A DNA stretch of 41,475 bases from Shigella phage SfII: sequence record NC_021857.1. One strand, 5' to 3'. Of this stretch, positions 33,001 through 39,000 are shown in pieces. A program made the position numbers. Numbering within the stretch: the stretch's first letter is position 1; each line of letters begins with the position of its first letter.

Positions 33001-36000
33001 AGGCTGCGTGCAGCCTACTGGTTACATGAGAGAGGCCTGAAAGTATGAAGCTGATCCTGCCTTTCCCGCCCAGCGTGAACACGTACTGGCGACACCCCAA
33101 CAAAGGGGCGTTTGCTGGTAAGAGTCTGATAAGCGCGGCGGGGCGAAAATTCCAGAGCGCGGCGTGCGCAGCAATAGTTGAGCAGTTACGTCGTCTGCCG
33201 AAACCAACGTCGGCACCTGCTTCAGTGGAGATCGTGTTGTTTCCTCCGGATAACCGGATCCGCGATCTGGACAACTATAACAAGGCGCTGTTTGACGCCC
33301 TGACCCACGCGGGTGTGTGGGAAGACGACAGTCAGGTGAAAAGAATGCTGGTGGAGTGGGGACCGGTTATCCCGGAAGGGAAGGTCGAGATCACTATCAG
33401 TAAGTACGAGAAAACGGCGGGTGCAGCCGCCTGATCAAGAGGAGAAACGAAGTATGAATAATCTGATGGTCATTGATGGTATTGAAGTTCGTCGTGATGC
33501 TTATGGGCGTTACAGCCTGAACGATCTGCACAGGGCTGCTGGTTCTCTGGATAAGCATAAGCCTGCATTCTGGCTCCGCAATGAGCAAACCGAACGTTTA
33601 ATAAGCGAGTTGCAGATTTGCAACTCGGTCAATATAGAGCCAGTTAACGTTAGTCGTGGCGGAAATAACCAGGGGACGTATGTCTGCAAAGAACTGGTGT
33701 ATGCCTATGCAATGTGGATCAGCCCGTCATTCCATCTGAAGGTGATCCGTACTTTCGATATGGTAACCAGCGCACCGGAAAAATTATCCGGGCAGGCTGC
33801 TGACAAGATGCAGGCTGGCGTGATTCTGCTGGACTTTATGCGCCGGGAGTTAAACCTGTCTAACTCATCTGTGCTTGGGGCCTGTCAGAAACTCCAGGAG
33901 GCTGTTGGCTTACCGAATCTGGCACCGCGCTATGCCATTGATGCTCCTGCTGACGCGCCTGATGGCTCAAGCCGCCCCACGCTGTCGCTGAGTGCACTGC
34001 TGAAACAGTATGGTATCCGCCTGACGGCTAATCAGGCATATCACCAGATGGCGAAGCTGGGGATCGTTGAACAACGCGAACGATACAGCCGTACCGCGAT
34101 TAACAACATCAAAAAATTCTGGTCGCTGACACCGAAAGGCTGCATGTTCGGCAAGAACATCACCAGTCCCGCAAATCCGCGCGAGACGCAGCCGCACTTC
34201 TTCGAATCCCGATTCCCTGAGCTGTTAAAGCTGCTCGATACCGTTCATTGAGGTGACCGTGAGAGCACTACTGACCCCTGAAATTGCCCCGCGTATGGGG
34301 ATCGTATTGTTCAGGCCAGGTTCAGAGCTGATGCCCCTGTTTATGCAGGGGCGTGTCCTGCTGGAGCCTGAGCCGGAACGTTATTCATCTTTCGCCAGTG
34401 GTGCCGTTCCGGCTGCATCACAACCGCTGGCGGATGATCCTGCCGTTCGGGCCGTGTTCCGCAATGAGGCAGTGATCCGTCGTGCTGGTGGCGTGGAATG
34501 TCTTGAAAGCTGGTTACTTCGTGAAAAAGGCTGCCAGTGGCCTCATTCCGACTGGCACAGCGAGAACATGACCACAATGCGACACGCTCCGGGCGCAATT
34601 CGTCTGTGCTGGCACTGCGATAACCAGCTGCGCGATCAGTTCACGGAACGGCTGGAATCAATGGCAACGGATAACTGTGCCCGCTGGGTGTTGTCTGTCG
34701 TGCGTCGGGATCTCGGTTTTGATGATAGTCACGTTGTGACAATGCCGGAACTGTGCTGGTGGCTGGTTCGTAATGACCTGGCTGATGCCTTACCGGAAAG
34801 TGCAGCCCGTAAGGCACTGAGATTACCGAAGCCTGTTGTGCCGTCTGTTACCCGGGAAAGTGACCTTGTGCCTTCGGTTCCTGCCACCAGCATCATCCAG
34901 GATAAGGCGAAAAAGGTGCTGGCGCTGAAAGTGGATCCGGAGTCGCCGGAGTCTTTTATGTTACGCCCAAAACGTCGCCGCTGGGTTAATGAAAAGTACA
35001 CGCGCTGGGTTAAGACGCAGCCGTGTGCATGTTGTGGAAAGCCTGCTGATGATCCCCACCACCTGATAGGCCACGGTCAGGGGGGAATGGGTACAAAAGC
35101 GCATGATCTCTTTGTGTTGCCTTTGTGCAGAAAGCATCATGACGAGCTGCATGCGGATACCGTGGTATTTGAAGAGAAGTATGGCTCCCAGCTGGAGCTG
35201 ATATTTCGTTTTATCGATCGTGCGCTGGCAATTGGCGTGCTGGCCTGATTTTGTGGAGAAGGTTGATGCGTGATATGTATGAAGTATTGGACCGCTGGGG
35301 AGCATGGGCTGCAGGGTTTAAAGGTTTACTACCTCATGGAAAGAAAACACGCCAACAATGCGATGATGATGAAGGAATCATGATTGACAGCTGTGTTGCG
35401 CGAATGCGGAAATATAAGCCAGAAGAATATGAACTGATCATTGCTCACTTTGTTATCGGTATTTCACTCCGTTCAATAGCAAAGAAACGGAAATGCTCTG
35501 ACGGGTCAATCAGAAAACAACTTCAAGCAGCAATAGGAGTGATTGAAGGTATTTTGTTGATTATTAAGCCCCTGTAGGGCTTAATAATTCATATGAATTC
35601 TGTTTCCGAGATAATATAATCCAAAGAAAGTTGATACTAAGAGTTGCCAAACGAGGAAAGTAAATACAACAGTATAAACCATTAAAACAAAACTGTTTTG
35701 ATAGACATTGATTAATGGTGAAAATATAGCATTAAGTATTATTATAACAATGCTTAATGCTGTTAAAAAAGAGAATAGCATGCAAAGAAATAATCGTCTG
35801 GTCAGAACCTCCTCTGAATTTACTACTTTTCCATTTTCTTTTGTTACTTTTATTTCAATAGAGGCATTTCTTTCATTGCTAATCAATGGTAAATCAATCT
35901 CAGCTCTATTGAAAGTTGCTATGGCGGCCAGAGCGGCAATATAAAACCCTGGTAGGTTAGAGATAAATGAAACGATTGATTTAATGAAACCATTGTCATC

Positions 36001-39000
36001 AAATAAATCTTTGACAGGGATTTTTAATAGAATGAAAAGTACTGCTGTGATAGAAGTAAGTAGAATTGGTGCTACCCAATCATATGCAGCTTTGCCGCTA
36101 ATACCTTTAATAAAAAGATATCCAAACGGCTTGCCTAGATGAGAGAAAACTGAAAGTATTGGCATAATAACCTCACATCAAATCTATCATTTTCACAACA
36201 AACTCTAGCTCAATTTTAACATATGAATCCTTCAGGCGCGAATTAAAGTTATCGATAATGCTTTTCTTAATAAATGTTTTTTCTAAATTATTAAGATTGA
36301 TGTTTGAGGTTTTGAAATCAACCTGCCTTGGTTTATTTGTTTCAGGATCTTGGAATTTAACCTTTAATTTATCATAACCACCATTCATTTTTTTATTGAA
36401 ATGAGATGCTACATTTTTAATCCATCCAATAACATTGTCACCATGATTTGGAAGTAATTTTAATGTACTTTCAGTCGGAATGTAAGGTGAGTTAACATCA
36501 GGAGCATTAATTGTTCCGAATTGATCCTTGACTAATATGACATCTGATAATCCTTTTTGGCTTATTTTATTAAAAAGCTCCTTGTCTAACATTCCTGTAA
36601 ATTCAAATATTGGTTTGTATCGTATTTTTACTTCTTTTTTTGATGTTGCAGAAATAACGTTAGTTGGATGTTTTGCGGTAAATAAGTCTTCATTGTCTTT
36701 CGCCACTTCAAAGAGAATTTTGTCTAAAAAACTATTTAACCGGGCCGTAGATACACCTGGGGTAGATGTACAAATCATATCATAGGTTCTTTTATTTCCA
36801 TTTAATGATATGACAACATAGGTAGAAACTTCATAGCCTTCACCTTGTTCATATTTTGGTTGGATTTCAACGCGTTCATTAGTATTTATATTTTTTACAA
36901 CGGTAGTACTTCCATTTTTATCAACACTATTAATAAGAAGGACAATATGCGTGGGTGAGTTATCTGGAAGTAAAGGATAAAGTTGTACATCTTGGAGAGT
37001 AACTACAATATTCCCAGAATCATATGAATGAACGAGTCCCTTTTGTTTAACAATCAATGGGGCAAGCATGTACATTTCCGGAACAGGACATATACACTGG
37101 GCTTTTACCTCTTGTGTTGCCTTGGTTCTAAACTTTGTGTCAATGGTCAGACTATGATGAGTAACGAGTCTTTCGCTAGCATTTAATTTTGCCATGAAAT
37201 CATCCGATTATGATTTTTCGATTTATTTGTTAATCTTACAAAAACGCTAACGCGTACGCAAAAATTATTGTATCGTGTTAAGAGTGGTTACTTCGCCACA
37301 CAGCTTAAACCCGCCGTCGAGCGGGTTTTGTCGTTTCTGGGGCTGGGGATTCGTTGGTCCTGGTCTATTCCGCAGTTATCCATTGGTTCGGCTTCTTTGA
37401 CGTTTCCGCTTCTAATTTGCTGTACATGATGTTCCCTCAATTTGCACCTGCTGTATCAGCGAGGTGAGAGATAACTACAAATGCCTCATAACCCAAATAC
37501 CTGGCTGGAGTTGTTCCAGAGCTGGTGGCGTGGAGACACACCGCTGGGCGCAGTGATTATGTCGATCGTTATGGCTGGCTTGCGCATTGCCTATTTTGGC
37601 GGTGGTGGTGGCTGGAAACGAAAAACGCTCGAGATTTTGCTCTGTGGTGCTCTGACGCTGACTTTTGCATCCGCTCTTGAGTATGTCGGATGGCCTAAAT
37701 CTCTTTCTGTTGCCATTGGTGGCGGTGTTGGGCTGATTGGTGTCGATGCAATTCGTGGGGCTGCAATGCGAGTAATCGGTAACAAATTTGGTAGCTCGAA
37801 GGAGTAATTTATGCAGGCACTAAATTCCCAGCGTAAAGCTTTCTTGGATATGGTTGCATGGTCAGAAGGAACGGATAACGGGCGACAACCGACACGTAAC
37901 CACGGTTATGATGTCATTGTCGGTGGTGAACTGTTTACTGATTACTCCGATCATCCTCGCAAACTTGTCACGCTAAACCCGAAACTCAAATCAACAGCAG
38001 CCGGACGTTACCAGCTTCTTTCCCGTTGGTGGGATGCCTACCGCAAGCAGCTAGGGCTGAAAGACTTCTCTCCCAGAAGCCAGGACTCCGTGGCATTACA
38101 GCAGATTAAAGAGCGTGGCGCTTTACCGATGATTGATCGCGGTGATATCCGTCAGGCAATCGACCGTTGCAGCAATATCTGGGCTTCACTGCCGGGCGCT
38201 GGTTATGGTCAGTATGAACATAAAATCGGTGACCTGATTGCCAGGTTTAAAGAGGCTGGTGGGGTGGTAAATGAAGTTGAGCTATAAGCTGATTATCGCT
38301 GCTTTCCTTTTAACTGTCGTCTGTTCTTTCATCTGGTCAACCAACCACTACTACAGCAAATATCAGCACGAAAAGAAACGTGCTGATGAGGCTGTACAAA
38401 ATGCCAAATCGGCAACTGCCATTACTAATAACGTCCTGCAATCACTACAAATCGTCAATACAGTACTGGAGGCTAACCAGCATGCAAAACAGCAGATCGC
38501 ACTGGAGTCACAGAGAACCCAGGCTGATATCAAAATGGCTTTTGCGAATGATGATTGCGCTGCCCGTCCTGTTCCTGCTCGTGCAGCTGAACGGCTGCGC
38601 CGGTACGCGGACAGTTTACGTACCAGTTTCGGCGGTACCACTACTAGCGAATCTGACCGCTGAAACTCCGCAACCAGCTATCCCCGACCCGCTGACATGG
38701 AGTGGGAGCCTGGATTTGAACGTAAGCCTGTTGTCGGCGCTGGCGTCTTGTAATAGGGATAAGTTAGACATTAGAAAGAGTGAGCACCTGCTTTCGGAGA
38801 AAAACTCTGCTGAAAAGTGAGGTTATATAGCTAGATCGGAATTGGCGATTCATATATCGGAAATAGTTGGTTAAGAATTTTCTGGAATGATTGTATGCTT
38901 TTACAACCTATATCGAAGTTCATGTTGGATGAATTTTATGCAAAACGTACAGCCGCTATCTCTGGTAACTACTTTAGTAATTTTGAGGTCTAATGGAGAG

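What the first reader, a model, noticed from the sequence alone, without database searches (positions are those of the whole stretch)
35581..37195. Opposite-strand AT-rich two-gene cassette between Q and the late promoter: candidate undescribed Rex-like abortive-infection / defence module
Two tightly linked genes (340-aa soluble protein, then a 194-aa protein with about four TM helices, 8-bp gap) sit on the minus strand in an otherwise plus-strand late region. They are visibly AT-rich with different codon usage from the flanking genes and begin 3 bp after the Q stop codon, so Q is separated from the tR'-like hairpin and holin by about 1.6 kb of foreign DNA. A cytoplasmic component followed by a small multi-pass membrane protein is the layout of lambda RexA/RexB and several membrane-effector abortive-infection systems, yet I see no Rex, Kiwa, CBASS, nucleotidyltransferase, nuclease or ATPase motif in either protein. 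The Q-to-lysis junction is a known moron hotspot in lambdoid phages.
Basis: partly seen in the sequence, partly recalled or inferred. Interest (0 to 1): 0.85.

Follow-up and report, generated by a model that had tools for sequence, protein, structure and literature searches.

The report
Rex-like phage-defence gene pair in SfII
The two AT-rich, opposite-strand genes between Q and the late promoter are real and belong to a widespread two-gene family (PADLOC candidate PDC-M53). One member, RexAB of a Pseudomonas putida prophage, was shown in 2026 to be a lambda-Rex-like anti-phage system, so this is a new, untested member of a known kind rather than an undescribed system.

Summary
**Observation: confirmed.** Two minus-strand ORFs lie convergent with Q, upstream of the pR'/tR' region and the holin. 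A is 36173-37195 (340 aa, soluble). B is 35581-36165 (194 aa, four long membrane helices). Their GC is 0.32, against 0.50 for the rest of the window.

**Family.**
- Both proteins match PADLOC's candidate system PDC-M53 over their full length (A 2e-32, B 3e-54).
- I identified locus L115 as P. putida prophage P1, because six published primers match it exactly. Its PP_5643 and PP_5644, the experimentally validated "RexABpp" defence pair (Rosendahl 2026), hit the same models (8e-157, 3e-72).
- Window B is 37% identical to RexBpp.

**Linkage and selection.**
- An A homolog sits directly upstream of B in 54 of 59 genomic loci and 79 of 80 viral loci.
- dN/dS is about 0.08 for both genes.
- The pair recurs at the same Q-convergent site in E. 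coli and Salmonella prophages, and next to the integrase of P4-like satellites.

**Most likely function.** A is a DNA-binding sensor that activates B, a membrane-damaging effector, and this aborts infection.

**Verdict.** The Rex-like defence reading is supported; "undescribed" is not. This is a new member of a known kind, and its function is untested here.

The parts
36173..37195 (-). Gene A: 340-aa soluble protein, PDC-M53A / RexApp-type putative sensor with an RdgC/RexA-like fold.
35581..36165 (-). Gene B: 194-aa inner-membrane protein with four long helices and a beta-hairpin in the central loop; PDC-M53B / RexBpp-type putative effector.
   Evidence: ORF. PADLOC PDC-M53B 2.8e-54. Hydropathy. 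AlphaFold pLDDT 86, pTM 0.82. 37% identity to P. putida RexBpp, BLASTP 1e-32. 682 homolog clusters with invariant motifs LPGFYIAALAAIATF, LTRRxFL and GLYYLG. dN/dS 0.073.
36166..36176 (-). A-B junction: A's TGA stop (36175-36173), GAGG Shine-Dalgarno (36174-36171) and a 7-nt spacer before B's ATG (36165). This suggests co-transcription and coupled translation.
   Evidence: Read directly from the sequence. Gaps of -8 to +16 bp in most other family loci.
35559..35589 (.). Perfect 13-bp inverted repeat (UUAUUAAGCCC...GGGCUUAAUAA core) straddling the convergent stop codons of Q and B. It may act as a bidirectional stem-loop or insulator, but it has no T-run.
   Evidence: strand folding gives -16.8 kcal/mol on both strands, z -5.3 and -6.0. 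It is kept with one mismatch in the Salmonella copy. A different GC-rich hairpin sits at the same junction of the alternative cassette in L002.
37233..37261 (-). Weak candidate sigma-70 promoter for the A-B operon: TTGCGT (37261-37256), 17-nt spacer, TAAGAT (37238-37233). It is divergent from, and overlaps, the conserved late-promoter segment.
   Evidence: Read from the sequence. The -35 element and spacing are conserved upstream of A in the Salmonella and E. coli copies. The consensus scan found no site scoring 9 of 12 or better on the minus strand in the region upstream of A, so this is a lead only.

Best explanation
The cassette is a RexAB-type (PADLOC PDC-M53, 'RexABpp-type') two-component anti-phage system carried as a moron by an SfII-like lambdoid prophage.

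Shown here:
- The two genes form a tightly linked operon-like pair.
- Both are under strong purifying selection.
- They belong to the same HMM families as P. putida PP_5643/PP_5644.
- A has an RdgC/RexA-like predicted fold.
- B is a four-helix membrane protein.

Inferred from the P. putida and lambda work:
- The pair is expressed from its own leftward promoter in the lysogen.
- Activated A switches on B, either by a change in the A:B ratio or by direct contact with B's conserved cytoplasmic central loop.
- B oligomerises and makes the inner membrane leaky.
- Loss of membrane potential and ATP stops growth, so the superinfecting phage cannot finish its cycle.
For: - **Family assignment.** PADLOC hits PDC-M53A and PDC-M53B over the full length of both proteins.
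- **Link to a validated system.** L115 is P. putida prophage P1: six primers from the paper's Supplementary Table 2 match it with 0 mismatches, and 6 of 7 published RexBpp mutant positions fit. Its two genes hit the same PADLOC models at 8e-157 and 3e-72. Window B is 37% identical to RexBpp.
- **Gene linkage.** An A homolog lies directly upstream of B in 54/59 genome loci and 79/80 viral loci.
- **Genomic settings.** The pair occupies the same Q-convergent site in E. coli and Salmonella lambdoid prophages. In Serratia it sits next to the integrase of P4-like satellites, which from my own knowledge is a defence hotspot.
- **Selection and composition.** dN/dS is about 0.08, and the cassette GC is below that of its flanks in all ten hosts checked.
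Against: - No experiment exists for this copy or for any enterobacterial member.
- A is very far from RexApp pairwise (BLASTP E 0.026 over 49 residues).
- B shows no significant similarity to RexB by sequence. The lambda-RexB model is not among the top 50 BFVD matches, none of which is significant.
- No convincing promoter was found.
- In P. putida, two-hybrid assays did not show an A-B interaction, and only a subpopulation of cells became permeable.
- Another PADLOC candidate pair (PDC-M63) gave no defence when tested in its native host.
Confidence: 0.7

Rival explanations
1. Butters-type reversed logic. The soluble protein A is the toxic anti-phage effector, and membrane protein B only sequesters it until infection releases it.
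For: Such a Rex-like system is described for mycobacteriophage Butters gp30/gp31, as summarised in PMC12894663. A is the more variable partner, with five PADLOC models against one for B, which would also fit a diversifying effector or sensor.
Against: In the homologous P. putida system, suppressors of RexApp toxicity map to rexBpp, and toxicity needs RexBpp. B is the most conserved component, with invariant intramembrane motifs, as expected of an effector.
Confidence: 0.08
2. The main role is regulation of the prophage's own lysis-lysogeny decision or late-gene switch. This could work as lambda RexA does, biasing the switch independently of RexB, or through antisense transcription into Q. Defence against other phages would be secondary.
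For: Lambda RexA has such a second function (abstract of PMC11077077). The cassette is convergent with Q, with only 3 bp and a stable hairpin between the stop codons.
Against: The same pair sits in P4-like satellites and in chromosomal sites of many Proteobacteria that have no Q gene. Its function therefore cannot depend on Q or on a lambdoid switch.
Confidence: 0.1
3. A membrane-level superinfection-exclusion or lysis-timing accessory (injection block, or holin/antiholin modulator) that happens to sit beside the lysis genes.
For: It lies next to the holin and lysis genes. A few B family members give very weak Pfam hits to a holin family (2 of 56, E 0.27).
Against: It is on the opposite strand and outside the Q-dependent late transcript. 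It is obligatorily paired with a DNA-binding-fold cytoplasmic protein. Most family loci have no lysis genes nearby.
Confidence: 0.05
4. A selfish or decaying cargo with no present function in this phage.
For: It is rare: 9 of 5426 complete E. coli genomes. It lies in a phage that also carries IS insertions.
Against: Both ORFs are intact. dN/dS is about 0.08. The copies are 99.7-100% identical across unrelated E. coli strains, and the gene pair is conserved across classes of Proteobacteria.
Confidence: 0.05

Closest known systems
P. putida prophage P1 RexABpp (PP_5643/PP_5644; Rosendahl et al. 2026, PMC12894663), equal to PADLOC candidate PDC-M53
   Different: The A proteins are barely alignable pairwise and fall under different PADLOC sub-models. 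The location differs: convergent with Q at the late promoter here, downstream of the CI-like repressor in P1. The host is an Enterobacterium and the GC is 32%. This copy is untested.
Bacteriophage lambda RexA/RexB
   Same: A soluble protein followed by a four-helix membrane protein. Prophage-encoded, and on the strand opposite to the neighbouring lytic genes. RexA is the top structural match of A. The proposed sensor and membrane-effector logic is the same.
   Different: No detectable sequence similarity to either protein. A is 60 aa longer and B 50 aa longer, with a beta-hairpin in the central loop. It is not in the immunity region and not co-transcribed with cI.
Actinobacteriophage Rex-like pairs (Sbash gp30/gp31, CarolAnn gp44/gp43; Butters gp30/gp31)
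   Same: A two-gene layout of soluble plus four-TM protein that defends lysogens. A functionally important central cytoplasmic loop in the membrane partner parallels the conserved FNRxxID...LTRR loop ends of B. The best TM-score for the B model in BFVD is a 165-aa Sbash protein (not significant, and its identity as gp31 is unverified).
   Different: No sequence relationship was shown. The hosts differ. Butters uses reversed roles.
RdgC (recombination-associated DNA-binding protein)
   Different: No Pfam RdgC match. RdgC is a stand-alone chromosomal or phage gene without a membrane partner.

Membership tests
PDC-M53 / RexABpp-type two-gene system | The soluble component matches the PDC-M53A profile. 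| tested here: met
   PDLC04696 2.1e-32 over residues 7-340; four further PDC-M53A models at 1e-12 to 1e-15. PP_5643 hits the same models.
PDC-M53 / RexABpp-type two-gene system | The membrane component matches the PDC-M53B profile and has four TM helices. | tested here: met
   PDLC04699 2.8e-54 over residues 6-193. Four hydrophobic segments or long helices. 37% identity to PP_5644.
PDC-M53 / RexABpp-type two-gene system | A lies immediately upstream of B on the same strand. | tested here: met
   7-nt gap in the window. 54/59 genome loci and 79/80 viral loci show the same arrangement.
PDC-M53 / RexABpp-type two-gene system | The soluble component has a RexA/RdgC-like fold. | tested here: met
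PDC-M53 / RexABpp-type two-gene system | Both genes are required for anti-phage protection; A binds DNA; A overexpression is toxic only when B is present. | not testable with these tools
   Shown only for the P. putida member (PMC12894663).
Lambda RexA/RexB (Pfam PF15969/PF15968; PADLOC RexA/RexB) | Sequence match to the RexA family. | tested here: not met
   No Pfam or PADLOC RexA hit. hhalign of the A family against RexA or the RexA family gives probability below 1% and P about 0.07. hmmsearch with the RexA family profile found nothing in 139 loci.
Lambda RexA/RexB (Pfam PF15969/PF15968; PADLOC RexA/RexB) | Sequence match to the RexB family. | tested here: not met
   No Pfam RexB hit for any of 56 B-family members even at E up to 10. 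hhalign probability 0.5%.
Lambda RexA/RexB (Pfam PF15969/PF15968; PADLOC RexA/RexB) | Located in the immunity region and co-transcribed with the cI repressor. | tested here: not met
   The cassette lies between Q and the late promoter, about 6 kb from the 230-aa ORF on the minus strand at 28703-29395 (function not checked). Lambda layout for comparison.
Lambda RexA/RexB (Pfam PF15969/PF15968; PADLOC RexA/RexB) | Exclusion of T4 rII mutants through membrane depolarisation. | not testable with these tools
   Needs plating and membrane-potential assays.
Kiwa (KwaA membrane protein + KwaB DUF4868) | KwaA/KwaB profile matches, with the membrane gene first. | tested here: not met
   PADLOC returns only PDC-M53. 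There is no DUF4868 Pfam hit. The gene order is soluble first, then membrane.

The most novel reading that the evidence does not exclude
The convergent Q/B arrangement, with only 3 bp and a stable shared hairpin between the stop codons, may act as a built-in switch. In the lysogen, leftward transcription of the defence pair would run antisense into Q and help keep the late switch off, like lambda's paQ. After induction, strong rightward early transcription through Q would run antisense across B and A and silence the prophage's own abortive-infection system, so the phage does not abort its own lytic cycle. This would be a position-encoded self-immunity mechanism for prophage-borne Abi systems.
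Probability: 0.12. Interest if true: 0.5.

Novelty: new member of a known kind. Interest (0 to 1): 0.33.

Why it matters
**What this gives.**
- It assigns a likely function to two 'hypothetical proteins unique to SfII'. By position these are probably SfII_49 and SfII_50 of the 2013 genome note (PMC3772137). SfII is the serotype-converting phage of Shigella flexneri 2a.
- It links a PADLOC candidate, PDC-M53, to an experimentally validated system, RexABpp. I did not find this equivalence stated in the library searched.
- It shows that the family is broad. B has at least 682 clusters at 90% identity, spread across Alpha-, Beta- and Gammaproteobacteria and one Desulfobulbaceae MAG.
- It shows that the pair rides on lambdoid prophages at the Q site and on P4-like satellites.

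**Practical relevance.** SfII-type lysogens may resist some therapeutic or typing phages through a Rex-like abortive mechanism.

**What this does not give.** It is not a new kind of system.

Tried and rejected
- **Pfam and NCBIfam on A and B.** Nothing above noise.
- **Near-identity DNA and tblastn against the phage collection.** The cassette is absent; only the pR' segment matches. The source phage seems not to be in that collection.
- **Literature searches** for 'PDC-M53' and for the RefSeq protein accessions. Nothing found.
- **Profile of the A family against PDB sequences.** Nothing.
- **hhalign of the A family against lambda RexA and a 25-member RexA family alignment.** I tried three settings and a re-built 178-sequence L-INS-i alignment. 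None was significant (P about 0.07), although the weak alignment is collinear in the C-terminal third. I could not reproduce the published HHpred 98% for PP_5643.
- **B against RexB by hhalign and Pfam.** Not significant.
- **B model against BFVD.** No significant hit.
- **Check of whether the Sbash 165-aa hit is gp31.** This failed because the accession I recalled was wrong and the paper gives none.
- **Kiwa, CBASS and toxin-antitoxin readings.** Rejected, because PADLOC returns only PDC-M53.
- **Alternative cassette of L002 as a diverged allele of the same system.** No support from PADLOC, Pfam or hhalign.
- **Promoter scan.** No strong minus-strand site upstream of A.
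Full report
**1.

The ORF listing finds two minus-strand ORFs: A at 36173-37195 (340 aa) and B at 35581-36165 (194 aa).
- B's stop codon lies 3 bp from the TAG of Q. Q is 35251-35577 on the plus strand (Pfam Phage_antitermQ 1.6e-33).
- The A-B spacer is 7 nt, not 8. A GAGG Shine-Dalgarno sequence overlaps A's TGA.
- GC falls to 0.29-0.36 across the pair, against 0.52-0.58 to the left. Overall it is 0.323 against 0.499.

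To the right lie three features:
- a segment shared with many lambdoid late-promoter regions, from about 37228-37253;
- a tR'-like terminator at 37307-37328;
- the holin and the lysis-gene ORF at 37811-38287, whose counterpart in L001 is annotated as a glycoside hydrolase family 104 protein.

A has no hydrophobic segment and B has four.

The window itself fits phage SfII. It has the published length of 41,475 bp and carries gtrA, gtrB and gtrII, an acyltransferase and IS transposases (PMC3772137). That genome note lists Q (SfII_48) and the hypothetical genes SfII_49 and SfII_50 as unique to SfII. These are very probably the pair studied here; this is an inference from their position.

**2. What the proteins are.**

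Pfam and NCBIfam give nothing significant. PHROGs places both proteins in families of unknown function.

PADLOC-DB v2 matches both over their full length to one candidate system. A hits PDC-M53A at 2.1e-32 and B hits PDC-M53B at 2.8e-54. No paper in the library mentions 'PDC-M53'.

Family sizes differ between the two proteins:
- A has 30 clusters at 90% identity in Enterobacterales and 267 representatives at 50% identity in the 1.8-billion-protein library. Nearly all are 310-340 aa.
- B has 682 clusters. It carries invariant motifs inside and at the ends of the helices: LPGFYIAALAAIATF, LTRRxFL and GLYYLG.

**3. Structure.**

The AlphaFold model of A is usable (pLDDT 79.5, pTM 0.72).
- Foldseek against BFVD finds three uncharacterised phage proteins of about 300-320 aa (E 7e-10 to 1e-7), then a phage RdgC (E 9e-4, probability 0.89). 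Lambda RexA is not in the top 50.
- RexA is itself reported to be RdgC-like (PMC11077077).

The fold evidence is therefore consistent but modest.

At the sequence level I find no link to lambda Rex:
- the A family profile against RexA, and against a 25-member RexA family alignment, gives probability below 1%;
- a re-built 178-sequence alignment gives P about 0.07, although the weak alignment is collinear;
- B against RexB gives probability 0.5%, and no B-family member touches Pfam RexB.

B's model is confident (pLDDT 86, pTM 0.82). It has four long helices plus a beta-hairpin at 102-120 in the central loop. The distribution of charges, with a basic N-terminus and LTRR just before helix 3, suggests that both termini and the central loop face the cytoplasm. 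This topology is an inference. It is the same topology proposed for RexB and Sbash gp31.

B has no significant BFVD match. The best TM-score (0.42/0.47) belongs to a 165-aa Sbash protein whose identity I could not verify.

**4. The decisive link.**

A 2026 paper (PMC12894663) shows that P. putida prophage P1 genes PP_5643 and PP_5644 ('RexABpp') form a defence system:
- both genes are required for defence;
- RexApp overexpression causes RexBpp-dependent growth arrest and membrane permeabilisation.

Scanning IMG/VR with the B alignment returned locus L115. I identified it as that prophage on two grounds:
- six primers from the paper's Supplementary Table 2 match L115 with zero mismatches, at the expected gene ends;
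- six of the seven published RexBpp mutant residues fall on the right amino acids at native numbering.

L115's two genes hit PADLOC PDC-M53A at 8.4e-157 and PDC-M53B at 2.8e-72. Lambda RexA and RexB hit only PADLOC's own Rex models.

Window B is 37% identical to RexBpp (BLASTP 1e-32). Window A is nearly unalignable to RexApp pairwise, but both hit the same PADLOC model PDLC04696, and RexApp scores 2.3e-73 against the family HMM built with window A.

So PDC-M53 is the RexABpp-type family, and the SfII pair is a divergent member of it.

**5. Linkage, selection and context.**
- **Genome scan.** In the GTDB-representative genome scan, 54 of 59 B loci have an A homolog immediately upstream on the same strand. 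Of the five exceptions, two are contig ends or gene fragments, one has an apparently truncated A (L039), and two (L023, L051) have upstream room but no detected A and were not examined further.
- **Viral scan.** In IMG/VR the figure is 79 of 80.
- **Taxonomic range.** Hosts span Gamma-, Beta- and Alphaproteobacteria and one Desulfobulbaceae MAG.
- **Selection.** dN/dS against the Salmonella copy is 0.086 for A and 0.073 for B.
- **Composition.** The cassette has lower GC than its flanks in all ten hosts checked.
- **Frequency.** The exact cassette occurs in 9 of 5426 complete E. coli genomes at 99.7-100% identity, for example in a degraded prophage at thrW-proA.
- **Same site in other prophages.** Diverged copies (64% and 84% B identity) occupy the same Q-convergent site in other E. 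coli and Salmonella lambdoid prophages that have different lysis and packaging modules.
- **Satellites.** In Serratia the pair sits directly after the integrase of P4-like satellites, before Ogr/Delta. From my own knowledge (Rousset et al. 2022), that region is a defence hotspot.
- **Alternative cargo.** A related E. coli prophage carries a different, unidentified soluble-plus-membrane pair at the same site. Another carries an added DNA methyltransferase. The site is therefore a cargo hotspot.

**6. Mechanism.**

Best-supported reading: a RexAB-type abortive or growth-arrest defence. A would be the cytoplasmic DNA-binding sensor and B the membrane-damaging effector, with the steps transferred from the P. 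putida and lambda work.

Shown here: family membership, fold class, membrane character, linkage and selection.

Inferred: expression in the lysogen, DNA binding, A-to-B activation, membrane leakage and phage exclusion.

Open points:
- The promoter is unclear. The consensus scan found no minus-strand site upstream of A. A weak TTGCGT-N17-TAAGAT candidate at 37261-37233 is conserved in position in the Salmonella and E. coli copies.
- A perfect 13-bp hairpin spans the Q and B stop codons (-16.8 kcal/mol, z about -5 to -6). It is retained in Salmonella and replaced by another hairpin in the alternative cassette. Its role is unknown.

**7. Rivals.**
- **Butters-type reversed roles.** This is disfavoured by the P. 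putida suppressor genetics.
- **A primary role in the prophage's own switch.** This is disfavoured because the pair also lives in satellites and chromosomal sites that lack Q.
- **An injection-block or lysis accessory.** This is disfavoured by the strand, by the pairing with a DNA-binding-fold protein, and by contexts without lysis genes.
- **Decaying cargo.** This is disfavoured by the low dN/dS.

**8. Verdict.**

The Rex-like defence interpretation is supported by homology to a validated system, but the system is not undescribed. It is a new, experimentally untested member of a known kind.

The modest added value lies in four points: the PDC-M53 = RexABpp equivalence, the family's breadth, its recurrent insertion sites, and a functional annotation for SfII_49/50.

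Interest is about 0.33.

Noticed in passing
L002 4199-5527 (E. coli strain 3502 prophage), equivalent to window 35578-37245: A related prophage carries a different AT-rich (GC 0.32) minus-strand pair at exactly the same Q/late-promoter site: a 273-aa soluble protein (phrog_23561, unknown function) plus a 160-aa membrane protein. There are no PADLOC or Pfam hits and no significant similarity to A/B or to RexA. The weak hhalign hint of the 160-aa protein to B's 'DW...LPGF' region has probability 1.9%. This could be yet another Rex-like pair.
   Followed up: partly
window 35559-35589: A perfect 13-bp inverted repeat overlaps the convergent stop codons of Q and B (-16.8 kcal/mol on both strands, z about -5 to -6). 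It is conserved with one mismatch in the Salmonella copy. A different GC-rich hairpin sits at the same junction in L002. It has no T-run, so it is not a canonical terminator.
   Followed up: partly
window 38887-41049: An IS3-family element splits a trypsin-like (S1) peptidase gene downstream of the lysis genes. The IS ORFs are 39976-40314 (HTH_Tnp_1) and 39323-39949 (rve), with a further fragment at 39109-39378. The peptidase is left as an N-terminal piece (38887-39174) and a C-terminal piece (40429-41049, Trypsin_2). The gene is intact (861 bp, 'S1 family peptidase') in E. coli H1827/12 at L001 9539-10399. It is another possible moron of unknown role.
   Followed up: partly
window 18806-24633: This is the serotype-conversion region. 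It holds an acyltransferase (18806-19855, Acyl_transf_3), a DDE transposase (20308-21498), then gtrII, gtrB and gtrA (21888-24633) and the integrase (24895-26058). Together with the 41,475-bp length, this matches the published description of Shigella phage SfII.
   Followed up: yes
L147/L148 4753-8327 (Serratia marcescens): A 340+191-aa A-B pair lies directly after the integrase of a P4-like satellite (Ogr/Delta, AlpA and a D5-type primase are nearby). This is the position of the satellite defence hotspot. In L148 the satellite sits next to a P2/186-like prophage end.
   Followed up: partly
L143 4298-5704 (E. coli): In the prophage with the 64%-identity variant of the pair, a DNA methyltransferase (N6_N4_Mtase, 350 aa) and a 67-aa ORF are also inserted between the pair and the holin. 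Several cargo genes can therefore stack at this site. In this variant B overlaps Q by 8 bp and the junction hairpin is absent.
   Followed up: no
L005 6629-9027 and L006 4231-6629 (Chromobacterium): Here the A-B pair is followed, on the same strand, by a 507-aa protein with a potassium-channel-type Ion_trans_2 domain and a 267-aa protein without Pfam hits. An HTH regulator lies upstream. These may be additional components or simply defence-island neighbours.
   Followed up: no
BFVD entry A0A0A7RXT6 (Mycobacterium phage Sbash, 165 aa): This is the best TM-score match of the B model (0.42/0.47 over 193 columns), though it is not significant (E 1.8). Sbash encodes the Rex-like gp30/gp31 pair, whose gp31 is a four-TM protein. 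I could not confirm that this entry is gp31.
   Followed up: partly
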